Shown in pieces: positions 11,469 through 43,141 of a stretch of 64,000 bases of DNA (within the stretch, counting starts at the first letter, position 1; each line of letters opens with the position of its first letter). The stretch lies in IMG/VR virus record IMGVR_UViG_3300024284_000001, positions 2,266 to 66,265 of that record; one strand, written 5' to 3'. The stretch is from a virus (lineage: Duplodnaviria; Caudoviricetes). The notes beneath the pieces are model-generated. The model was not told the origin of the DNA and did no database searches. It worked only from the letters and a program-made list of their open reading frames with translations. A program made the position numbers and the translations under genes.

Positions 11469-12190
11469 GACGGTCCCATCCGCCACATGGCAGTTCCGTT
11501 CTCGCCGGTTGAGCCCCTGGTCAGCGTGAGGGGGTTGTTCGCGCCCGCGAAGGCGTGAACGACATCGCCATGGCCTTCGTACAGGTGCCATGCGACCTGC
11601 AATCCGGAATTGAACGGGGCGAGACTTCCGGTCCACGGATAGGCCCTCCCGGCGTTATAGACCGCCAGAACTTCTGCCGCCGATAGAGCACGGTCGAAGA
11701 CCGCGCACATCGAGATGTAGCCGAAGTAGTTATTGGCATTCACTCCCTGCGTGAGCTTCGTGATGCCCATGCCGTTGAGCGACGTGTAGGCGCCAACGGA
11801 GTTTCCGGCGTCCACGCCGTCTATGTACGACCTGAGGGCGACGCCGTCGTCCGTGGTCGCGATGAGATGCCACCCGCTGTCGGTGGCCGGAAGGTTCGTC
11901 GTCGAGATCAGCACGCGGGTGCCGGCGAGAATGACGGTGAGCTTGTTCGCGTTGCCGCCGTCGCCGTAATACCACTGCGTGTCTGGCCCCGAGCCCGCGA
12001 ACCAAAGCGGGCTGTAGTTACTGAGGCTAGGTCCGGTGAAGAAATACCACCCAATGAGCGAGGAGTTTGCGCCCAGGGTGATCGTCGAGCCGAGGACGAG
12101 CGCGTCTGTCTGCGCCGAGATGAGGACACTCGGGGCCGGGAGATCGGCCACGGCGAGCGGAGACGTGAAGGAGGAGATAACCTTTGTCAT
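11465..12190 (-). CDS. LamG/concanavalin A-like domain virion protein
   Basis: WHLIATT...LRSYIDGV...YFGYISMCAVFDRALSAAEVLAVY is a Laminin_G_3-like signature. Confidence 0.85.
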   Translation of the reverse strand: MTKVISSFTSPLAVADLPAPSVLISAQTDALVLGSTITLGANSSLIGWYFFTGPSLSNYSPLWFAGSGPDTQWYYGDGGNANKLTVILAGTRVLISTTNLPATDSGWHLIATTDDGVALRSYIDGVDAGNSVGAYTSLNGMGITKLTQGVNANNYFGYISMCAVFDRALSAAEVLAVYNAGRAYPWTGSLAPFNSGLQVAWHLYEGHGDVVHAFAGANNPLTLTRGSTGENGTAMWRMGPS

Positions 12191-12198
12191 TTACGTCC

Positions 12199-12735
12199 TC
12201 ACGCTGCGGTCCATGATCCCTGTCCTCCGCCAGCGAACCACACGACGCCGTTCGAATAGACCTGGATGAAGTCGCCCTGGGCATTCGAGGTCAGCGTGCC
12301 GCCTGCGCTCGAGACGGAGCCATCTATGCGGATGAGATCGGTCCCCGCCGCGTCGATGACCACCGTGTGGTTGTCGGCCACGTAGAAGCTGTACGCGAGC
12401 CCAGAAGCCACGGCCGGAAGCGAGAAGGTGATCGTCCCGGACGATCCGGTATTCGTGAAGAGCTTGCCCGAGTCTCCGGCGACGACCGGATAGCTCGCGG
12501 TCTTGGCCGAGGGAACGACCTTACCGAGGATGCCGCCCGCTGCGGTGAAGATGTGCGTCGTATTGTTGAAGCTGAAGTTCGCGTTGTCCTGGGCGAGCAC
12601 TCCGCCCTGCGCGAAAATCACCGAGCCATCGGTGAATGTCGTTGACGTTCCCGGCCCAATGGTTCCGCCTCCACTGCCCCCGGCACCACCATCGAGTCGC
12701 ACGGCCACCGTGTCTAGCTGTTGGGCGTAAGCCAC
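12199..12735 (-). CDS. Tail fibre-like structural protein
   Basis: GGAGG SD plus GTG; AKTASYPVVAGDSGKLFTN...ITFSLPA segment typical of phage fibre/tip domains. Confidence 0.6.
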   Translation of the reverse strand: MAYAQQLDTVAVRLDGGAGGSGGGTIGPGTSTTFTDGSVIFAQGGVLAQDNANFSFNNTTHIFTAAGGILGKVVPSAKTASYPVVAGDSGKLFTNTGSSGTITFSLPAVASGLAYSFYVADNHTVVIDAAGTDLIRIDGSVSSAGGTLTSNAQGDFIQVYSNGVVWFAGGGQGSWTAA

Positions 12736-12929
12736 GAGTCCTCCATCGGAAGTCTCTCGACGAGCTTGAGCGCGAATTCACGCTCACCCGTCATCGCTAG
12801 CGATTCGTAGGTTTCGAAGAGTGTACGGGCGGAGTTCTCGAATGCCCGTCGTACGCCAACGCGTCTCTGCCGCTCCGGGTCGATGATTTCGTTGACGAGC
12901 GGCATCTCGATCACTTTCTCCGCGCTCAC
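12714..12929 (-). CDS. Hypothetical protein
   Basis: 71 aa downstream of terL. Confidence 0.5.
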   Translation of the reverse strand: MSAEKVIEMPLVNEIIDPERQRRVGVRRAFENSARTLFETYESLAMTGEREFALKLVERLPMEDSWLTPNS

Positions 12930-12964
12930 GACTCGAATCCGAAGATGATGTTCATCAGGCTCTC

Positions 12965-14449
12965 CTAAGCCACACGCCGAGGCCGTCCACGGAAATCGAT
13001 CGGTCGATCCTGGGCGGCATTGGCATATTTCTTCTGGGCCATCTGGTACTGAAGGGCGCGGAAGGTGGGGTCCTTGGCCGTGACGAAGTTCCTGATCTTC
13101 TCCTCCACGGGCTCGTCGATCTCGCGCGGTACCGACTTAATGCCGTAGCGGGCGGAATCGACTCCGTCGTCGCCGTCCACCTTGAGGTAGTCGTCCGGGT
13201 CATCAGGATCGATGACCATCTCGGGGAGCCTCTTGATGAGGTTGAAGCAGCGCGGATTGATCTTCCACTGTCCCTGCGTGAGGAGCTGGTGCATCAGCCG
13301 GGCACCGCCCTTGCGGTCATTGTCGGCGGGTACGGCGGCGGGAATCCCACTCTTGGCGAAGACCTCGTTCATCTCAATGGCGATCGTGCGGGGCGAGGTC
13401 TTCTTGGCGAAGGCGTCGGGGCCGAGGAAGACGGTTCGGATCTTCTCGTCACCCGTCAGCTCGACGATCCGCTGGGCGAGCTGGTAGGGCTCGAGGTTGT
13501 TGACGATGAGTTCGCGGTAGGTGTAGGTCACGCCGCTGACGTAGACGTGCCAGTGGATCGCCGCGTCGTGGGTGAAGCCCCAGTCTCCGCTGATCCAGCG
13601 ATAGGCCCAGGGCGAGAACTCGAGGGTCTTGGGGTCGTAGGTGTCCTTGTCCTCGTGGAAGTTCTCGAAGTAGGCGCCAGAGATCGCGTCCCAGGAACCC
13701 TCGAGAAGCTGAGCCTTGAGCTTCTCGTTCATCGCGTTCAGGTTTTCGAGGTAGAAGGGGTCGTTCTCGAGAAGGTGATGGTTGTCGGTAGTCTTCGCCG
13801 GGATGAACGCGTAGTTCTCGGGCTTATAGGCCCGCACCGGCATACCAGCCGGAGGCTCTTTGGTTACAAAGAGAGCTTTACACCAACTTACTCCTCTCCC
13901 TTGAGGATTTGTGGCGGCCACCATATTCGGGTCCCGCCATTCGCTCTTGATGCTCGAGCGGTTACGGGTAGTGAGGAACTCCCACATCCGGTAATGAGGG
14001 AGGGTGTCCGTCACCTCGTCGATCGCGATGACCCCGTACTCGTCCGTCTTGTAGTCGAGAAGGGCCGTCTCGTTCTCAACATGCCCGAATCGGAGGGTGG
14101 ACCCGTTGAAGAAGGTCGCCGTCTGGTGCTGGACGTTGAAGGTGAAAACCTTGTTGTCGGGGTTGCCGATCGTCGCCAAAAAGCGGTCCCGGATGATCTG
14201 CTGAAGGTCCGGATTGTTTTTACGGAGGAAGAGGGCCTTCCAGCCGGGCGTCGCTAGGCACTGGGCCACGACTTCCTGAACTAGAGTTACGGTTTTCCCT
14301 CCGCCCAAAGCGCCTCCGTAAAGCCTGTACCTGCAAGGGTTTGTGTGGAATTCGATCTGCTTCGGGAGGGGTTTGTACCAGGTCTGCCCAACCTGCACGG
14401 GCGCCTGTTTCGCTTGGCGGCTACGGGCGGACGCTCGCGGTTTCGCCAT
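12965..14449 (-). CDS. terL: Terminase large subunit
   Basis: Q motif (PLPKQIEFH), Walker A GGALGGGKT, Walker B IAIDE, ATNP coupling motif, RNase H-like SGDWG and DDGVDSARY. Confidence 0.95.
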   Translation of the reverse strand: MAKPRASARSRQAKQAPVQVGQTWYKPLPKQIEFHTNPCRYRLYGGALGGGKTVTLVQEVVAQCLATPGWKALFLRKNNPDLQQIIRDRFLATIGNPDNKVFTFNVQHQTATFFNGSTLRFGHVENETALLDYKTDEYGVIAIDEVTDTLPHYRMWEFLTTRNRSSIKSEWRDPNMVAATNPQGRGVSWCKALFVTKEPPAGMPVRAYKPENYAFIPAKTTDNHHLLENDPFYLENLNAMNEKLKAQLLEGSWDAISGAYFENFHEDKDTYDPKTLEFSPWAYRWISGDWGFTHDAAIHWHVYVSGVTYTYRELIVNNLEPYQLAQRIVELTGDEKIRTVFLGPDAFAKKTSPRTIAIEMNEVFAKSGIPAAVPADNDRKGGARLMHQLLTQGQWKINPRCFNLIKRLPEMVIDPDDPDDYLKVDGDDGVDSARYGIKSVPREIDEPVEEKIRNFVTAKDPTFRALQYQMAQKKYANAAQDRPIDFRGRPRRVA

Positions 14450-14507
14450 TCTGAGCGGCAAGGGGATCAGCTTTTCGACGAGCCCGCAAGAAAAGTCGGT
14501 GTTTTAC

Positions 14508-14536
14508 CTGACAAACGCGTTTTCGGGGACTATATT
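14508..14536 (+). promoter_or_regulatory. Sigma70-type promoter with palindromic operator-like site
   Basis: CTGACA-17-TATATT; AAACGCGTTT at 14513-14522. Confidence 0.7.
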
Positions 14537-14542
14537 CAACCT

Positions 14543-15012
14543 GATGACCAGGCAGGGCTTTCCCTTCGCGGTGGTATGGGGCCACCGTTCGGTCTCCCGC
14601 CCCGTGAACGTCCTGGAATCTCGTGTTGAGGGTGGCGGCGTCGCCGACCCCGTGCCCGCGTCAGAGGTAGGAACAACGCCTTTCGGCGCACCGCATGGAC
14701 CGGGATGGAAGCCCTACACCAGCGCCCGGAATTTTCCTGACGGAGAGGCCAGCCCCATTCTTTTCTTGAGACTGCGAGTTCCGGCTGACGCCGGGCCGAG
14801 CTTCGTTCTCCCCGGATACCAAGCTCGAGCGGAAGGACCGTTCGGCGTTGCCGCCGAGTCCGAGACGATTCACGGCAGCAGCCTAAACCGATGATGCTAC
14901 GATTTCAAGCGCGTCCGGGACGTTCACACATCGCCTCGGCGATGGTTCAGCGGCGCGGCCCCGGAGGTTTCGGCGACCTGACGGCGTCGGAGCTTCCGGG
15001 GCTTCCTTTTTT
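14543..15012 (+). ncRNA. Candidate large structured ncRNA or leader (~470 nt)
   Basis: Lies between promoter and terminator; 14-bp long-range helix 14604-14617/14914-14927; many hairpins; no convincing CDS. Strand not certain. Confidence 0.5.
14958..15012 (+). terminator. Intrinsic terminator-like stem with large loop
   Basis: gccccggagg/cttccggggc 10 bp followed by ttcctttttt. Confidence 0.65.
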
Positions 15013-15039
15013 GAAGCCGAAACCCCCCGAAAGGAGAAA

Positions 15040-15870
15040 ATGAGGCCCATGGAAGACTTCAAGGAATCCCCGATCGTAGGCGCGGACACGGCCCTGGCGA
15101 AGAAGAGCGGGGACGAGATCGACCTGGCGATCAAACGCATGGAGAAGCTCGCCGAGGGCATGTCCCGTTTCCGGACGGCCTTCGTCTCCCAGACCGTCCC
15201 CTCAGACTGGGCGGTTTTCGGCAAGCAAGCCTACCTGGAGGGCGACGGGGCGATGCGGGTGGCCCCCCTCCTCGGGCTCGACGTCTCGAATGTCCAGAAG
15301 ACGAAGGAGTACGACGAGAAGACCGAGGTGACGTCCATCACCGTGACCCTCGACGCCTACTCCCGGACCCTCGATCTTCGACTCGAGGCCGTCTCGAGGA
15401 GCGCCAAGGACGACGAGGACTACCTGAAGGGGAAGAAGCCGAAGGCGGACATCGAGGACGTGCGGTCGGCCGCCTACACCCGTGCCCTCGCCACCGCCGT
15501 TCAGAAGCTCGCGGGGCTCGGTGGCCTTACCCCCGAGGAGCTGACCTCTCGGTACGGCATGAAGCTCTCGGGCGATCAGAAGGTCGAGTTCCGGACGGGG
15601 GCTTCGGATGCGAAGAAGGCGGATCGGGAGGCGGGGGCGGCTGGAGTCACCGAGATCCAGAAGATCCTTTTCAAGATTAGTAACGGCGAGTCAGACGTGG
15701 CGGCCGACATCCTCCAGGGGCTCACCGTGAACAAGGAGAAGGGTTGGGCCGGAAAGCGCAATCCGCTTGATCTCACCGAGAAGGGCGTCGCCTTCGTCCT
15801 ACCGAAACTCAAGCAGAAGGAGAAGGAGTTCGACGAGGCGCTTGCGAAGATGGAGGGCGGTGTCGAATGA
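15040..15870 (+). CDS. Hypothetical protein, possible ssDNA-annealing/recombination protein
   Basis: AGGAG SD; first gene of an operon containing an exonuclease and RusA. Function inferred from context only. Confidence 0.4.
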   Translation: MRPMEDFKESPIVGADTALAKKSGDEIDLAIKRMEKLAEGMSRFRTAFVSQTVPSDWAVFGKQAYLEGDGAMRVAPLLGLDVSNVQKTKEYDEKTEVTSITVTLDAYSRTLDLRLEAVSRSAKDDEDYLKGKKPKADIEDVRSAAYTRALATAVQKLAGLGGLTPEELTSRYGMKLSGDQKVEFRTGASDAKKADREAGAAGVTEIQKILFKISNGESDVAADILQGLTVNKEKGWAGKRNPLDLTEKGVAFVLPKLKQKEKEFDEALAKMEGGVE

Positions 15871-16154
15871 ACGGGTTCCCTCGGGACAGCTTCGGTGACC
15901 TTCCCCGTACCGAGCGCGTCCCATCCGCCGCACACCTGATAACCGATGGCGCCGGGCCGATCCCCTGGGTCTGGAGCGGGAGCGGCGAGCAGAGCGTCCA
16001 TTGCGTGCGAAAGGGTTGCACCGGCTACTTCCTGCGCGTCATCGACGCCCAACTCTCACCGGGGTCTCCTAGCTACTACAGTGACACGCATCCCGATCCG
16101 ATCGGCCCAGGTGGCGCTGTACCGCCCTGCCCCGACCAGCAGGTGGACTTTTAA
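15867..16154 (+). CDS. Hypothetical protein
   Basis: ATGA overlap; fits the operon. Confidence 0.5.
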   Translation: MNGFPRDSFGDLPRTERVPSAAHLITDGAGPIPWVWSGSGEQSVHCVRKGCTGYFLRVIDAQLSPGSPSYYSDTHPDPIGPGGAVPPCPDQQVDF

Positions 16155-16429
16155 TGAGTCGCTCCATCTGGAAATACCCCGTCAGCATCGAGGACGAGTT
16201 CGAAGTCCAGATGCCCTGCGGTAGCCAAATCCTCTCGGTCCAGGTCCAGGGAGACCAGCCGTTCTTCTGGGCCAGCGTCGAGAAGGACAATGACCTCCGC
16301 AAGAGACGATTCGCCGTGCGTGGGACCGGGCATCCAACAGACGACGTCGCTACCTCCGCGTTCATCGGAACCTTCCAGCTCCACGCCGGCCAACTTGTTT
16401 TCCACCTCTTCGATCGAGGGCCAGTATGA
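16154..16429 (+). CDS. Conserved small phage protein
   Basis: IWKYP...ILSVQVQ...W...RRF...GTGH...GTFQL...LVFHLF pattern familiar from many phages. Confidence 0.7.
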   Translation: MSRSIWKYPVSIEDEFEVQMPCGSQILSVQVQGDQPFFWASVEKDNDLRKRRFAVRGTGHPTDDVATSAFIGTFQLHAGQLVFHLFDRGPV

Positions 16430-17400
16430 CCCCCGCCGAATCCCTAGACGCCGCCATCACCACCCACTTCGAACAACAGCGCCACATCCGCGCCCAGTAC
16501 ACGAACAGGGTTTCCCAGGCCGGGATGGCGCTCGAATGCCAGCGCAGAGCCCAATGGGCGCGCACCCACTGGCAAGACGCCACTCTCCCCGACGTCTCAT
16601 TGCAACGCAGATACACCCTCGGGAACATCTTCGAGCCGGCCATCGTCAAGATGCTGACGGACTCCGGAGTCCCAGTCATCCAACAGCAGCGAGACCTTTC
16701 GTGGCCCGAGTTCCAGCTCACCGGGCACATCGACGGCGTGGTCCTGATCGAGAACGAACAGATCGTCCTCGAGATCAAGTCCGCTTCCCGCTTCTCTTTC
16801 GAGAAGATCCGGAAGGTCGGGAACGCCACCGGCCTCCTGATGGATCCTCGGGCCTACATCCGAGGCTACGTCGTTCAGGCTGCGCTCTACGCCCTCCTGA
16901 TGGGGCTGAAGCGAGCGCTTGTGGTGTTTTGCAGCAAGGACTCCGGCGAGACACACACGATCGAGGTGAGCCTCGACGAACCGGCGGTCCTGGACGTCGC
17001 CGAGAAAGCTCTGAAGCGGTTCGAAAAGATCAACGCCGCCATCGCCGCCAAGGAAGACCTGCCGCCGGAGCCCGGTCCCTATTGCAAGGAATGCCCCTTC
17101 CTGGGGCTCTGCGCGCCGCCTCTGTCCTTCGCCTCGGCCGGCGGGATCGTGGAGGACCCGGCGGCGGAACTGGACCTCACGCGGCGTGCCGAGCTTCTCC
17201 CCGCCCATCAAGAGTTCGAGGCGATCGACGAACGGATGAAGAAGCGGTTCGACCAGGCTGGGTCCTTCATCCTCGGCAAATGGACGGTGGTCGTCCGGAC
17301 TCAGGAGAAGACTTACTACGATGTGCCGAAGGACCAGAAGGAAAGATTTGCGAAGAAACGTTTCGACCTGAGGCGGGAGTATGTGGCCCCATCTGAGTAA
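16426..17400 (+). CDS. Cas4-like PD-(D/E)XK exonuclease
   Basis: GHIDG...LEIKS, QAALY, and 1+3 Cys pattern (ECQR ... CKECPFLGLC). Confidence 0.85.
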   Translation: MTPAESLDAAITTHFEQQRHIRAQYTNRVSQAGMALECQRRAQWARTHWQDATLPDVSLQRRYTLGNIFEPAIVKMLTDSGVPVIQQQRDLSWPEFQLTGHIDGVVLIENEQIVLEIKSASRFSFEKIRKVGNATGLLMDPRAYIRGYVVQAALYALLMGLKRALVVFCSKDSGETHTIEVSLDEPAVLDVAEKALKRFEKINAAIAAKEDLPPEPGPYCKECPFLGLCAPPLSFASAGGIVEDPAAELDLTRRAELLPAHQEFEAIDERMKKRFDQAGSFILGKWTVVVRTQEKTYYDVPKDQKERFAKKRFDLRREYVAPSE

Positions 17401-17575
17401 CGACGACGTCCCCTACGCCCGCGAGTACATCGCCCAGCTCGAGGAGGCCGTCAACATCGCGAGAGAGCGGGTGGAGTCGGCGCGACTGGACCTGAGCGAA
17501 GCGACCCAGGAGCTTGACGCCGCCCGTGAACGGCTGGCTATCGCCCAGCGGTTTGAGGAGGGGGCTCCGGTATGA
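17381..17575 (+). CDS. Small coiled-coil protein
   Basis: Heptad-rich 64 aa. Confidence 0.5.
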   Translation: MWPHLSNDDVPYAREYIAQLEEAVNIARERVESARLDLSEATQELDAARERLAIAQRFEEGAPV

Positions 17576-17850
17576 ACCGCGACGAGTACGCCCTCTATCG
17601 CAAGGAACGGGACTGTCCGTGCGCGAAGCGGTTCATTCGCCTTGGCCCCGAGCCAACCGAGGAGCCGGGCACCGGCTGTTCCACCTGCCACAACACCGGG
17701 GAGATGCGGATTCTGGTAACGATGGATCAGCGCCGGACCTGCGAAGAGGGGCTCGCGCATCGCGTATTCGAAGTCGCGAAGATCCCGTGCCCGAGTTGCC
17801 ATGGGCCGGAGCTGATGAAGCTGCTCTCCCCGGAGAGGCGGTTCGCATGA
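17572..17850 (+). CDS. Zn-finger protein
   Basis: CPC, CSTCHNTG and CPSCHG motifs. Confidence 0.6.
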   Translation: MNRDEYALYRKERDCPCAKRFIRLGPEPTEEPGTGCSTCHNTGEMRILVTMDQRRTCEEGLAHRVFEVAKIPCPSCHGPELMKLLSPERRFA

Positions 17851-18347
17851 GCGCCGGAGAACTCCAGACCCTCTGGCTTCCGCAGCGCTTTCCCGGTCTA
17901 AACGAAATTACAAACGCCAATCGGACCCACTGGACGAAGGGCGCGAAGCAGAAAAAGACCCTGACATTCGCCGTCAGCTACAAGGCTCTCGAGGTCGGCC
18001 TGAAGCCAGTGACGAGCGCCGTCGATCTGACGTTCGTCTGGTACGAGCCGAACCAGAAGCGAGACCTCGACAACATCTCGGCCGGTGCCAAGTTTATTTT
18101 GGACGGGCTCGTCAAGGCCAAGATCCTCCCGACCGATGGACAGAAGTGCGTGAGGACAATCCGACACGCCCTGATCGGTGAAGACTTCCGGGATGGCCTC
18201 GTCGGCGTCCGGGTGGAGATTTACGAGCGTTCTCGCGGGTCCGATCTTCCGTGGGAAGTGATCCCGAAACCGGCGGGCGAGCGCGAGTACGTCGTCACCG
18301 TCCCCTCGAATCCGAAACGAGAGATACGCAGAAAGGTGGTTGGCTAA
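17847..18347 (+). CDS. rusA: RusA-family Holliday junction resolvase
   Basis: RDLDN...KFILDGL...TD catalytic Asp pattern; ATG 17847 overlaps the upstream stop. Confidence 0.85.
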   Translation: MSAGELQTLWLPQRFPGLNEITNANRTHWTKGAKQKKTLTFAVSYKALEVGLKPVTSAVDLTFVWYEPNQKRDLDNISAGAKFILDGLVKAKILPTDGQKCVRTIRHALIGEDFRDGLVGVRVEIYERSRGSDLPWEVIPKPAGEREYVVTVPSNPKREIRRKVVG

Positions 18348-18550
18348 TGGAATTCGTGACATTTCAACGCGCCTACGATCGGCGCCCCATCGCCCTGTTG
18401 GCCCGTGACATTCGCGGCGTGCTGGAGATCGATAAGGACGCCACGGTCATGCTCGTCGGCCCAGACGTCACCGTCGAGGGAACTGTCGCGGAGACCGTCA
18501 AGAAGCTTGAAAAAGCTTACGAGCCCATCGGGCGCATCAAGGCGGATTGA
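18347..18550 (+). CDS. Hypothetical protein
   Basis: TAATG coupling; 67 aa. Confidence 0.55.
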   Translation: MEFVTFQRAYDRRPIALLARDIRGVLEIDKDATVMLVGPDVTVEGTVAETVKKLEKAYEPIGRIKAD

Positions 18551-18991
18551 ATGAGAATCCGCCGCGAACTAGCCCGCCTCCCCGGCCTCGTCGTGGATGT
18601 AGGCTTCGAGCGCTTCGTCGCCAGCCTGAGTGACGAGAAGGGTCAATTCCTCACGACCATCCGGAAGGACAACGTGCGGAAGCGCTGCCGTCACAAGCTC
18701 CGGTTCGGTCAACCGATTTCGTTCGTCATCGCCGTGGACGACCGTACGGGGATCGCTCGACACCGCGTCGAGATCATCGGCCGGCCGGTCCACCGTTGGG
18801 AGACCGCAGCGTTCAAGGAAGCCGTGATGCCGGCCCTACGCCGGTATCGGAGAGGAGAAGCCTCAACATGGGACGAGAATACTTCTACGAGCGTCTCCGA
18901 GGAGACCCAGCACATCGCGACATCCCCCTCCGAAGGGACTGCCGGCCTCCCTCTCGATTCGAGACCCGAAGACACCCCGAGTGGTCTTTGA
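18551..18991 (+). CDS. Hypothetical protein
   Basis: Starts immediately after the upstream stop; the C-terminal part is low-confidence. Confidence 0.45.
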   Translation: MRIRRELARLPGLVVDVGFERFVASLSDEKGQFLTTIRKDNVRKRCRHKLRFGQPISFVIAVDDRTGIARHRVEIIGRPVHRWETAAFKEAVMPALRRYRRGEASTWDENTSTSVSEETQHIATSPSEGTAGLPLDSRPEDTPSGL

Positions 18992-31189: not shown

Positions 31190-31843
31190 CTAGCGCTGTT
31201 CGTCATCGGTAGACGACGGCGGCTCAATCTCCGCCTGCGCCTCAACCCTCCCCCTCTTCACCGGCTGAGGTACCGCGATCACGACCTGCAACGGCCCGCC
31301 TCCCGCTCCTGTTAGCTCCGTCTTATCCCCGTACACGGCTCGTCTACGGCCCTTAAGGATCAGCTCGGCGAGCCTATCGCTGTAGACAGTCTCCTCACCC
31401 ACCTTGCTCCCACCCTGGTAGATGGGACGCTGGTGGCCTTCTACGGCCCTCTGGTATGCCGCCGCTTCCAGGCGATCGATGCCGCATTCCATGGCCTTGT
31501 GGATCTCCGTTTCGATTGCCGGGACGCGTTGACGCCAGTAATGGACCGTGTCCGAGGAGATACCGGCGAGCTTTGCCGCCTTGTCGATCACCGGAACCGT
31601 GCGGAGTGCCTCGAGAAGCGGGCCGATCCAGACGTGCGGCCTTCCGAGCTTCCCTCCTCGCGCCCGCGTATTCGCTAGGCGATCCAGTTGGGCGCTGAGT
31701 GCCTCGTCAAGTCTTTTCCGCCTAGTGAGCCACGGACTCTCCCTCTTCCCCGTAGCCTTCCGATTTTCATCAAGCGGAGCGAGTTCCGCGTGGATAACCT
31801 CTTCCGATTCAACGTCTTCGGTAGTCTGCGCGTTGGCGCTCAT
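31190..31843 (-). CDS. terS: Terminase small subunit
   Basis: HTH (AAKLAGISSDTVHYW), EAAAYQRAVEG...YSDRL..LILK.RR...YGDKTELTGAGGGPL pattern; AGGAG SD. Confidence 0.85.
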   Translation of the reverse strand: MSANAQTTEDVESEEVIHAELAPLDENRKATGKRESPWLTRRKRLDEALSAQLDRLANTRARGGKLGRPHVWIGPLLEALRTVPVIDKAAKLAGISSDTVHYWRQRVPAIETEIHKAMECGIDRLEAAAYQRAVEGHQRPIYQGGSKVGEETVYSDRLAELILKGRRRAVYGDKTELTGAGGGPLQVVIAVPQPVKRGRVEAQAEIEPPSSTDDEQR

Positions 31844-31920
31844 ACTCCTAACATACTCCCGCCGTCAAATCTCCCTCGTCAAGGGGTCCGAAGATTTCCC
31901 TCTTTTCTTCCCTCCCACCC

Positions 31921-31949
31921 TTGAAAACGCATTTCCTCCGCCCTATCTT
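31921..31949 (+). promoter_or_regulatory. Early promoter, operator family member
   Basis: TTGAAA-ACGCATTTCCTCCGCCC-TATCTT, followed by the GCCC-GAGA-GGGC hairpin. Confidence 0.75.
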
Positions 31950-31990: not shown

Positions 31991-32341
31991 ATGACAGACA
32001 ACGCATCCCGAATCCGCCGCGAATACGTCGAAGGCTACGAATCCCACCCCGGCCGTTTCGAAGGCGAGGGACCGGAAACCGTCTATTTCTACGATCTCAC
32101 AATGGACGGAAGCGGCGACGAGCTTTCATGCATGGAGGACGGTTGCGGCGAGTACGCTTGCATGCTCGAAGTTGACGACGACGAGCGCGAAGCCTTCGAG
32201 TTTCCGTCCAACGTGACTCACTTCCTCGTCACTCAATCCGAGTACGGATTCATCAGCGGAACCCCGCTCACCACGCGCGAAGCCGACAAGGTCCGTAAAC
32301 AGTACGAAGCGCTCGACGCTCTTCACGTCAACGAAGCCTAA
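31991..32341 (+). CDS. Acidic early protein
   Basis: AGGAG SD; D/E-rich. Confidence 0.6.
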   Translation: MTDNASRIRREYVEGYESHPGRFEGEGPETVYFYDLTMDGSGDELSCMEDGCGEYACMLEVDDDEREAFEFPSNVTHFLVTQSEYGFISGTPLTTREADKVRKQYEALDALHVNEA

Positions 32342-42681: not shown

Positions 42682-43041
42682 TTAGCCTCCAAACAGCTCC
42701 TCGACCGACACCGGCTCCTCCTCCCTCTCGCGCCTCTCCGCGTTGATGACCGACGTGATCGCCAGCCCGAGCGCCAGGTTAGGTAGGTACCGGCCACGCC
42801 GAAGCTCGTAAACACACTCGACGGAGGCCCCCACCCTCCGCGCCAACTTCGCCAAGGTCATCCCGCTGAAAGCCCGAGCCGCCTCCAGCTCCACGGCAAG
42901 ACGTGTGGCGTGGCACCCCCTGGGCGGGTTCTTGGCACGCGTCAGGCCCTCTGGATCCTTCTTCTCCGGTGGCTGGTACGGTCGTCTGGGTGGGGCTGGT
43001 TGGGGTTCGGGCTCGAGCTGGGTCCGCATGAATGGCTTCAT
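42682..43041 (-). CDS. XRE-family HTH regulator
   Basis: MTLAKLARRVGAS...VYEL.RGRYLPNL.L...I; divergent from the Ro60 operon; start uncertain. Confidence 0.8.
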   Translation of the reverse strand: MKPFMRTQLEPEPQPAPPRRPYQPPEKKDPEGLTRAKNPPRGCHATRLAVELEAARAFSGMTLAKLARRVGASVECVYELRRGRYLPNLALGLAITSVINAERREREEEPVSVEELFGG

Positions 43042-43088
43042 GCCCCGAGAGTCTACGCGAATCTACGCAACGCATCTCGGTGTTTTTC

Positions 43089-43117
43089 TTGACAAACGCA
43101 TTTCCACGCCCTACGTT
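43089..43117 (+). promoter_or_regulatory. Promoter of the Ro60-Y RNA operon, operator family member
   Basis: TTGACA-AACGCATTTCCACGCCC-TACGTT; AAAGGAGG SD at about 43130. Confidence 0.8.
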
Positions 43118-43141
43118 GAGGTCCGCTACAAAGGAGGCGAC

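What the first reader, a model, noticed from the sequence alone, without database searches (positions are those of the whole stretch)
14508..15012. ~470-nt structured RNA candidate with its own promoter and terminator, next to terL
Seen: CTGACA-17-TATATT promoter; no credible CDS for about 500 nt; a 14-bp helix (gtgaacgtcctgga 14604-17 / tccgggacgttcac 14914-27) encloses about 300 nt of hairpins (cgcc-tttc-ggcg, ccggc-tgac-gccgg, gagctt/aagctc, gggtggcg/cgccgaccc). Outside it lie cggtgg/ccaccg, catcgc/gcgatg and a terminator. G-U pairs favour the plus strand, though some loops read GAAA on the minus strand. Known: phages carry large ncRNAs (GOLLD, ROOL) and RNA antiterminators (HK022 put). I could not match this sequence to any family I know. 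Inference: novel large ncRNA or attenuating leader, also antisense to the region upstream of terL.
Basis: partly seen in the sequence, partly recalled or inferred. Interest (0 to 1): 0.72.

Follow-up and report, generated by a model that had tools for sequence, protein, structure and literature searches.

The report
Orphan phage leader RNA with terminator
A gene-free stretch of about 0.6 kb in an uncultured phage has a strong early promoter at one end and the window's strongest terminator at the other, so it probably makes a ~470-nt non-coding leader RNA that gates the recombination genes; no relative exists, so the predicted fold cannot yet be verified.

Summary
Window 14399-15039 has no credible gene and lies between terL (minus strand) and a Rad52-like annealing protein gene (plus strand) in a complete 66-kb metagenomic phage.

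Signals for a plus-strand transcript:
- The promoter at 14508-14536 is one of only three near-consensus sigma-70-like sites in the window.
- It shares a 27-nt motif with the promoter of the phage's Ro60 gene.
- The hairpin at 14957-15003 followed by T6 is the strongest terminator-like site in the window. It ends 28 nt before the next start codon.

Limits of the evidence:
- Folding energy is only moderately unusual: z is -2.8 to -3.4 against shuffles, and the region ranks 14th of 526 windows.
- No Rfam family matches.
- No homologue of the region was found in any collection. The nearest relatives (45-48% protein identity) carry small protein genes at this position. Covariation therefore cannot be tested.
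- A 116-codon frame that opens at the predicted transcript start has no homologues and does not look coding.

Best reading (about 0.5): a non-coding 5' leader ended by a terminator that gates the recombination operon. That is a known kind of phage arrangement, here unusually long and without relatives. A new stand-alone RNA class is not excluded.

The parts
14399..15039 (.). Gene-free gap between divergent terL and the annealing-protein operon
   Evidence: No GC3 periodicity. Codon scores are below all real genes. No gene was called here on identical contigs L006/L007.
12965..14398 (-). terL (large terminase). The likely start is GTG 14398; the in-frame extension to 14449/14461 does not look coding.
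   Evidence: Pfam Terminase_6N and PHROG 979/2. The gene caller's 477-aa product is P0001. The extension scores -0.17.
14496..14536 (+). Early promoter: T-rich upstream element, -35 CTGACA (14508-13), 17-nt spacer holding ACGCGTTTTC, -10 TATATT (14531-36)
   Evidence: The 27-nt motif is identical at all 24 specified bases to 43077-43103, with 0 expected. A third member sits at about 31919. It is one of 3 sites with at least 10/12 matches in the window.
14543..15012 (+). Predicted ~470-nt non-coding transcript. The start is inferred 7-8 nt after the -10; the end is in the U-tract.
   Evidence: Inference from the promoter and terminator. MFE -221.8 kcal/mol, z -2.81. 113 pairs have probability 0.8 or more. 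No Rfam match at E up to 10.
14568..14588 (+).
   Evidence: Mean pair probability 0.96
14604..14617 (+). 5' arm of the 14-bp long-range helix
   Evidence: I8; mean pair probability 0.98
14618..14913 (+). Enclosed multi-hairpin domain of about 296 nt. The local hairpins are well defined; the junction pairings are poorly defined (probability 0.1-0.6).
   Evidence: The core has z -3.35 on the plus strand and -2.04 on the minus strand.
14914..14927 (+). 3' arm of the 14-bp long-range helix
14929..14944 (+). 6-bp hairpin with a CUCG loop
   Evidence: -10.5 kcal/mol, z -4.3; probability 0.99
14957..15012 (+). Intrinsic-terminator-like element: hairpin 14957-15003 with G.U pairs, then CUUCC and U6 (15007-15012)
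   Evidence: -41.3 kcal/mol, z -4.0. It is the most stable hairpin before any T5+ run in the window, -39.9 against -28.7 for the next best. Also.
15040..15870 (+). First gene downstream: Rad52/Sak-like single-strand annealing protein (276 aa) with a strong SD at 15031-15036. It heads an operon with DUF7352 and a Cas4-like PD-(D/E)XK exonuclease.
   Evidence: AF2 pLDDT 83.6. Foldseek matches RAD52, Sak and Mgm101 with probability 0.9-1.0 and E 3e-3. Pfam and PHROG hits on the neighbours.
14544..14894 (+). Rival feature: a 116-codon open frame that starts at the predicted transcript start (would be leaderless)
   Evidence: No real homologue among 1.84 billion representatives. Codon score is -0.05 to -0.02. 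Atlas recognition is 1797, below 2300. AF2 pLDDT 36.9.

Best explanation
The gap is the long non-coding 5' leader of the phage's early recombination operon. Host-type RNA polymerase starts at the promoter 14508-14536 and transcribes about 470 nt that fold into a 5' hairpin, a domain closed by a 14-bp helix, and a small hairpin. It then meets a very stable hairpin plus U-tract at 14957-15012, 28 nt before the annealing-protein gene. Most transcripts would stop there and yield a discrete structured RNA. Only read-through, whether leaky or driven by an unidentified factor or by the leader itself, expresses the annealing protein, DUF7352 and the exonuclease. This is the logic by which phage lambda places its red genes behind tL1. 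Shown here: the promoter and terminator signals, the lack of coding signal, and the lack of any other promoter-like site before the operon. Inferred: that transcription happens, that the terminator works and is conditional, and that the internal fold matters.
For: PROMOTER.
- It is the only sigma-70-like site in the 1.5 kb around the gap.
- It is one of three near-consensus sites in 128 kb of both strands. All three are intergenic and face a plus-strand gene.
- It shares a 27-nt motif with the Ro60 promoter, with 0 expected by chance.
- It shares the spacer motif with a third promoter at about 31919.
- The other two class members sit 23-45 nt before their first gene. Only this one is followed by about 500 nt.

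TERMINATOR.
- It is the strongest hairpin before a T-run in the window, with z -4.0.
- It contains G.U pairs that would be A-C mismatches on the other strand.
- It has no T-run on the minus strand.
- There is no promoter-like site between it and ATG 15040.

NON-CODING..

FOLD.
- z is -2.8 for the whole region and -3.35 for the core. The closing helix has probability 0.98.
- The plus-strand ensemble is better defined than the minus-strand one.

PRECEDENT. In Pseudomonas phages 42 terminators lie inside 5'UTRs, giving a short RNA and a read-through mRNA from the same start (doi 10.1101/2023.10.13.562163).
Against: - There is no transcript evidence.
- No homologue of the region exists, so there is no covariation or conservation test.
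- Folding energy is not exceptional for this genome. The region ranks 14th of 526 GC-adjusted windows, and some coding windows score better.
- The core folds equally well on either strand.
- The U-tract is separated from the long stem by CUUCC, so terminator efficiency is uncertain.
- No convincing antiterminator alternative helix was found.
- No Q-type antiterminator gene was found.
- Relatives hold small protein genes at this position, so the region could be a decayed remnant of such genes.
Confidence: 0.5

Rival explanations
1. It is a stand-alone, trans-acting large structured RNA, the first member of a new class. The promoter and terminator define an RNA gene whose product acts elsewhere, for example with the phage's Ro60/Y-RNA machinery or against a host defence. 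Expression of the downstream operon through the terminator would be secondary.
For: - The unit is discrete, with its own promoter and terminator.
- The promoter is shared with the Ro60/Y-RNA operon.
- The phage carries a second terminated non-coding region of about 480 nt at 45207-45690, whose window has the lowest GC-adjusted MFE among those scanned.
- Local helices are well defined.
Against: - There are no homologues and no Rfam hit.
- There is no similarity to the second non-coding region.
- The downstream operon has no promoter of its own, so the RNA cannot be independent of it.
- The thermodynamic signal is moderate.
Confidence: 0.15
2. The fold is incidental. The region is a spacer or a decayed remnant of the small early genes that relatives carry here. 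The promoter, and perhaps the terminator, are real, but the 300-nt interior has no RNA-level function.
For: - Three relatives (L008, L009, L016/17) have a promoter-to-start distance of similar length, about 460-550 nt. In them it encodes a conserved peptide of about 60 aa and a transmembrane peptide.
- The other relatives are packed with small genes upstream.
- The GC-adjusted MFE rank is unexceptional, and inverted repeats of this size occur 11 times in 64 kb.
Against: - No remnant similarity to those peptides appears in any frame.
- z is -3.35 for the core, with 0 of 100 shuffles folding as well.
- Phage genomes rarely keep 0.5 kb of inert DNA (general knowledge).
- The strongest terminator in the window is unlikely to be an accident.
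Confidence: 0.18
3. It is a leaderless protein gene. The 116-codon frame from ATG 14544, 7-8 nt after the -10 box, to TGA 14894 would encode a small orphan early protein.
For: - The ATG sits exactly where the transcript should start.
- By my estimate from base composition, a 147-codon stop-free frame in the gap has roughly an 8% chance across six frames.
- Relatives encode small proteins here.
Against: - The only hit among 1.84 billion representatives is a chance match to a repeat protein.
- Codon score is -0.05 to -0.02, against a minimum of 0.05-0.15 for accepted genes.
- GC by codon position is 0.69/0.58/0.67, against 0.63/0.41/0.87 for the neighbouring annealing-protein gene.
- Atlas recognition is 1797, below 2300.
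- AF2 gives pLDDT 36.9.
- Gene callers did not call it.
- The other two promoters of this class serve genes with a Shine-Dalgarno sequence.
Confidence: 0.07
4. The function lies on the minus strand. The gap would hold the late promoter and a long structured 5' leader of the terL operon. The plus-strand RNA would matter mainly as its antisense partner, by transcriptional interference or RNA duplex formation between early and late expression.
For: - terL heads a minus-strand structural operon whose promoter must lie in or beyond the gap.
- The core folds equally well on the minus strand.
- One loop reads as a GAAA tetraloop on the minus strand.
- No sigma-70-like minus-strand promoter is seen, which is usual for factor-dependent late promoters.
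Against: - No minus-strand promoter motif is shared with the regions before other minus-strand operons.
- The minus-strand ensemble is poorly defined, with 64 against 113 high-probability pairs, and has a weaker z.
- The terminator and the 14-bp helix carry G.U pairs that become mismatches on the minus strand.
Confidence: 0.08
5. It is a DNA-level element. The 14-bp inverted repeats would bound a small mobile element (MITE) or an invertible segment of 324 bp.
For: The inverted repeats are 14 bp long, match at 13 of 14 positions, and flank 296 bp.
Against: - No other copy exists in the phage.
- No copy with these ends and spacing exists in IMG/VR or in 185,579 species genomes.
- There is no target-site duplication at the flanks.
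- No promoter-like site lies inside the segment.
- Three independent assemblies show the same orientation.
Confidence: 0.02

Closest known systems
Phage lambda PL - nutL - tL1 arrangement ahead of the red (exo, bet, gam) recombination genes (established knowledge)
   Same: An early host-type promoter is followed by a terminator that must be read through before the recombination genes are expressed. Here those genes are an annealing protein and an exonuclease.
   Different: Lambda has the N gene and a short boxA/boxB nut site in the leader. Here the leader is about 470 nt, has no credible ORF, and no nut-like element or N or Q homologue was identified.
Lambda PR' - 6S RNA - tR' (Q antitermination) (established knowledge)
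   Same: A constitutive promoter makes a short terminated non-coding RNA directly upstream of an operon that is expressed only by read-through.
   Different: The 6S RNA is 194 nt and the system needs Q and a qut site. The two Q-type Pfam families whose controls worked do not match this genome. Here the gated operon is early recombination, not late genes.
HK022 put RNAs (cis-acting antiterminator RNA) (established knowledge)
   Same: A structured leader RNA sits just downstream of an early promoter and upstream of terminators, with no protein antiterminator needed. This would explain the lack of a Q or N homologue.
   Different: Put consists of two stem-loops of about 70 nt. No similarity could be tested here, and the function is purely conjectural.
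5'UTR-derived short RNAs made by premature termination in Pseudomonas phages (phiKZ, PAK_P3, LUZ19 and others; doi 10.1101/2023.10.13.562163)
   Same: A promoter, a terminator inside the 5'UTR, and then the gene. A short abundant RNA and a long mRNA share one 5' end.
   Different: Those RNAs are under 250 nt and were seen experimentally. This one is about 470 nt and only predicted.
GOLLD and ROOL, large structured RNAs often carried by phages (Rfam)
   Same: Size class of 0.5 kb or more, phage-borne, with a multi-hairpin architecture.
   Different: There is no match to any of the 4227 Rfam 15 models, even at E up to 10. Those families were defined by covariation across many genomes, whereas this sequence is an orphan.

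Membership tests
   There is no hit in 14300-15200 on either strand at E up to 10. At gathering thresholds the whole window gives only a tRNA and one sRNA hit near 45 kb.
Conserved structured ncRNA (generic criterion) | Homologues with compensatory base changes in the proposed helices | not testable with these tools
   No homologue was found in the GenBank phage collection, IMG/VR, 185,579 species genomes, the loci of 21 relatives or earlier scan notes. Independent assemblies are 100% identical.
5'UTR premature-termination leader / attenuator | A promoter, then an intrinsic terminator upstream of the first start codon, with no second promoter in between | tested here: met
   The promoter is at 14508-36. 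The terminator at 14957-15012 is the strongest in the window. Then 28 nt lead to ATG 15040 with no promoter-like site. These are sequence predictions only.
5'UTR premature-termination leader / attenuator | Short and read-through transcripts observed with a common 5' end | not testable with these tools
Riboswitch-type or leader-peptide attenuator | A mutually exclusive antiterminator helix that competes with the terminator's 5' arm | tested here: inconclusive
   Only chance-level alternatives were found: an 8-bp match of 14640-47 with 14970-77, and weak pairing to 14591-14600 in the truncated transcript.
Lambda-type Q antitermination unit | A Q-family antiterminator gene in the phage | tested here: not met
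   PF06530 and PF03589 give no match at E up to 0.1 in the complete genome, and their controls worked. The PF06323 control failed, so that search is uninformative.
phi29-type packaging RNA (pRNA) | A match to the pRNA model, in a phage that packages without a small terminase | tested here: not met
   There is no Rfam hit. A terS gene is present at 31190-31843 (PHROG 4044, E 5.8e-26).
MITE / invertible segment | Further copies or both orientations, and a target-site duplication | tested here: not met
   No other copy was found. There is no duplication at the flanks. Three assemblies show the same orientation.
Protein-coding gene (116-aa frame) | Homologues, codon usage or a confident fold | tested here: not met

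The most novel reading that the evidence does not exclude
The ~470-nt unit is the first member of a new class of large, stand-alone structured phage RNAs. It would be co-regulated, through a shared promoter/operator motif, with the phage's Ro60, Y-RNA and tRNA module. This would make the phage one that carries at least two large terminated non-coding RNAs (14543-15012 and about 45207-45690) besides its Y RNAs.
Probability: 0.1. Interest if true: 0.7.

Novelty: new member of a known kind. Interest (0 to 1): 0.38.

Why it matters
If the prediction holds, this is an unusually long (about 470 nt) terminated leader that controls a Rad52-type recombination module. It sits in a phage lineage with no cultured relative; its best terL match among 50,697 phage records is under 33% identical.

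It would add to the evidence that premature termination in 5'UTRs is a general phage control device. The phage also encodes Ro60, Y-like RNAs and a second terminated non-coding region of about 480 nt, so it is a good place to look for RNA-centred phage biology.

As it stands, the RNA is an orphan with no transcript data. Its value is as a well-delimited candidate for in vitro transcription and structure probing, not as a demonstrated new RNA class.

Tried and rejected
HOMOLOGUE SEARCHES FOR THE REGION (ALL EMPTY).
- blastn against 50,697 phage records.
- The helix-arms pattern and the promoter motif against IMG/VR.
- The helix-arms pattern against 185,579 species genomes.
- nhmmer and blastn against the 21 loci of relatives.
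- The whole record behind L010. The records behind L008, L009, L017 and L002 are not held, so they were not searched.
- Earlier scan notes, by sequence and by relatives.
- The genome search 'relatives' is not available for a virus record.

SEARCHES THROUGH NEIGHBOURING PROTEINS.
- terL relatives are at most 43% identical and have terS directly upstream.
- Annealing-protein relatives are at most 48% identical (excluding one partial 197-aa hit at 50% over 64% of the query) and have small genes upstream.
- The genome-contig scan with the annealing-protein family found nothing.
- MAFFT alignments of the gaps (A1, A3) showed only promoter-like and short GC-rich coincidences.

OTHER HYPOTHESES TESTED.
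- A decayed terS in the gap: rejected, because there is no tblastn signal and terS is at 31190-31843.
- Similarity to the second non-coding region at 45207-45690: none.
- A late-promoter motif shared with other intergenic regions: none.

NOT DONE OR NOT POSSIBLE.
- A covariance model of the 324-nt core was not built. It would exceed the calibration limit, and there is no homologous sequence to search.

Full report
CONTEXT. The window is bases 2266-66265 of a 66,265-bp IMG/VR virus record with direct terminal repeats, rated complete. The same phage was assembled twice more as 66,279-bp contigs. These are 100% identical to the window over 12049-18870. The finding lies in a gap between two divergent genes.

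On the left is terL on the minus strand (12965-14398/14461; Pfam Terminase_6N, PHROG 979). The gene caller's start is GTG 14398, and the 21-codon extension beyond it does not look coding.

On the right is a 276-aa gene on the plus strand (15040-15870) with a strong Shine-Dalgarno sequence. It has no Pfam or PHROG match. With a 10-sequence alignment AlphaFold2 gives pLDDT 83.6, and the model resembles the RAD52, Sak and Mgm101 annealing proteins (Foldseek probability 0.9-1.0, E 3e-3). A 95-aa gene, DUF7352 and a Cas4-like PD-(D/E)XK exonuclease follow it. This is therefore a recombination operon.

The small terminase is not next to terL. It lies at 31190-31843 on the minus strand (PHROG 4044, E 5.8e-26).

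The phage has no cultured relative. The best terL match among 50,697 phage records is under 33% identical.

Promoter:
- CTGACA-17-TATATT at 14508-14536 is the only sigma-70-like site in 14000-15500, where 0.1 is expected.
- A scan of the whole window with the same rule finds just three sites with at least 10 of 12 matches on both strands. All three are intergenic, on the plus strand, with 17-nt spacers, and each faces a plus-strand gene.

Coding signal:
- The gap shows no third-position GC periodicity, while the flanking genes show the expected pattern.
- Every frame scores below every real-gene segment in a codon-usage log-odds test.

Helices and hairpins:
- The 14-bp helix is reported by the repeat finder as 13 of 14 complementary, with the 14th position a G.U on the plus strand. 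Its mean pair probability in the ensemble is 0.98.
The hairpin gggtggcg/cgccgaccc is not.

Terminator:
- T-runs of five or more are rare in this 62% GC genome, with 24 on both strands. This one follows by far the most stable hairpin, -39.9 kcal/mol against -28.7 for the next.

HOW UNUSUAL IS THE FOLD? Moderately.
- Against dinucleotide shuffles the plus strand of 14530-15015 has z -2.81 (1 of 100 shuffles as good) and the minus strand z -1.28.
- The core 14604-14927 has z -3.35 (0 of 100) on the plus strand and z -2.04 on the minus strand. The absolute energies are the same, -141 and -143 kcal/mol.
- I folded 263 windows of 486 nt on both strands across the window and regressed MFE on GC content. 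The candidate ranks 14th of 526. Several coding windows score better, and the candidate was placed at its best register.
- Inverted repeats of this size class occur 11 times in 64 kb.
- The plus-strand ensemble is better defined than the minus-strand one: 113 against 64 pairs at probability 0.8 or more, and -218.8 against -205.1 kcal/mol. The plus-strand structure loses 23 kcal/mol when mirrored onto the minus strand.
It does not hold for the minimum energy of the core.

NEW EVIDENCE FOR THE PROMOTER.
- A 27-nt stretch covering the T-rich upstream element, the -35 box and the first half of the spacer (14496-14522) recurs at 43077-43103. All 24 specified bases are identical, no shuffle gave two matches, and the window has no other match with up to 3 mismatches.
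- That second copy sits 23 nt before the start of a 534-aa Ro60 protein (TROVE and Ro60 vWA domains).
- A third promoter at about 31919 (TTGAAA-17-TATCTT) carries the same spacer core and lies about 45 nt before the plus-strand gene at 31991.
- The phage therefore has a class of three rightward promoters. Two serve their gene directly. Only the one in this finding is followed by about 500 nt and a terminator.

IS THERE A PROTEIN? One frame deserved a test. ATG 14544 lies 7-8 nt after the -10 box, where transcription should start, and opens 116 codons ending at TGA 14894.
- An exhaustive HMMER search of 1.84 billion cluster representatives gave one hit at E 1.7e-4. It is a 1188-aa repeat protein matched through its repeat unit, which I read as chance.
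- Its codon score is -0.05 to -0.02. The lowest real-gene chunk scores 0.15, and the lowest small gene I accepted scores 0.05.
- The language-model recognition value is below the level that 91% of real families reach.
- A single-sequence AlphaFold2 model has pLDDT 36.9.
- No other plus-strand start in the gap has a ribosome-binding site. The one such start on the minus strand (GTG 14585, 54 codons) scores -0.17.
- I put the coding rival at about 7%.

RELATIVES.
- terL relatives are at most 43% identical and carry a 118-161-aa gene, presumably terS, directly upstream instead of a gap. The products of those genes find nothing in the gap.
- Relatives of the annealing protein are at most 48% identical, excluding one partial 197-aa hit at 50% over 64% of the query.
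- In three of them (L008, L009, L016/17) the gene is preceded by a promoter-like site and a stretch of 460-580 nt of similar length. That stretch encodes a conserved peptide of about 60 aa and a transmembrane peptide. No trace of either is detectable in the window.
- All other relatives have densely packed small genes upstream.
- No sequence similar to the gap was found anywhere.
- Covariation, the decisive computational test, is therefore impossible at present. Rfam 15 gives nothing, even at E up to 10.

WHAT IT MOST LIKELY IS. The signals add up to a plus-strand, non-coding transcription unit of about 470 nt.
- Only 28 nt and no promoter-like site separate the U-tract from the annealing-protein start codon.
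- The recombination operon can therefore only be transcribed through the terminator. That makes the unit a long leader with a gating terminator.
- This is the layout by which lambda holds its red genes behind tL1 and its late genes behind tR'. Transcript mapping in Pseudomonas phages found the same layout 42 times.
- I found no convincing antiterminator helix and no Q-type antiterminator gene. How read-through happens is therefore open. It could be leakiness, an unknown factor, or put-like action of the leader itself.
- Whether the terminated RNA also acts in trans is equally open. The shared promoter with the Ro60/Y-RNA operon and the second terminated non-coding region near 45.2-45.7 kb keep that reading alive.

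VERDICT. This is a well-delimited but orphan candidate: a new example of a known kind of phage regulatory arrangement, unusually long. There is no evidence yet that its fold is conserved or functional.

Noticed in passing
window 31190-31843 (minus): The small terminase (PHROG 4044, E 5.8e-26) is encoded 17 kb from terL, at the head of a different leftward gene block. Relatives keep a terS-like gene directly upstream of terL.
   Followed up: partly
window 14496-14536, about 31919-31947, 43077-43119: There is a three-member plus-strand promoter class with 17-nt spacers holding ACGCrTTTyC. The copies at 14496 and 43077 are identical at all 24 specified bases of a 27-nt motif, which may include an imperfect dyad (GTGTTT ... 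AAACGC) over the -35 box. A weakly HTH-like 119-aa gene (42682-43041, minus; HTH_31 E 0.002, below the Pfam cut-off) diverges from the 43077 copy.
   Followed up: partly
window 45199-45690: The other non-coding region of about 480 nt lies in the window with the lowest GC-adjusted folding energy among those scanned (z -3.0). It ends in the second-strongest hairpin-plus-T-run, just before tRNA-Gln at 45698. It shows no sequence similarity to 14543-15012.
   Followed up: partly
window 45138-45205: Rfam reports a hit just above the gathering score to a nematode sRNA family (ceN72-3_ceN74-2; 40.2 bits against 38). It is probably a structural look-alike and not a true member.
   Followed up: no
window 15040-15870: The 276-aa protein has no Pfam or PHROG family, but its model resembles the Rad52, Sak and Mgm101 annealing proteins. 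Its homologues (10 clusters) are always followed, directly or after one or two small genes, by a PD-(D/E)XK exonuclease. This looks like an unannotated annealing-protein family.
   Followed up: partly
L008:3654-3982, L009:3580-3985, L016:2180-2481: Relatives carry two conserved small genes before the annealing-protein gene: a peptide of about 60 aa beginning MT..E.R.FQK, and a transmembrane peptide. Gene callers missed them in L016/L017 and called an opposite-strand ORF in L009.
   Followed up: partly
L002:4001-6604 (P0005) and P0006: Two terL relatives are about 867 aa long and carry a LAGLIDADG domain (PF14528). This suggests an intein or a homing-endonuclease insertion in the terminase.
   Followed up: no
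window 15016-15027 versus 14963-14974: A stretch just after the U-tract and next to the Shine-Dalgarno sequence is 11 of 12 complementary to the 5' arm of the terminator hairpin. In read-through transcripts this could change access to the ribosome-binding site, but it is about chance level for a region this size.
   Followed up: no
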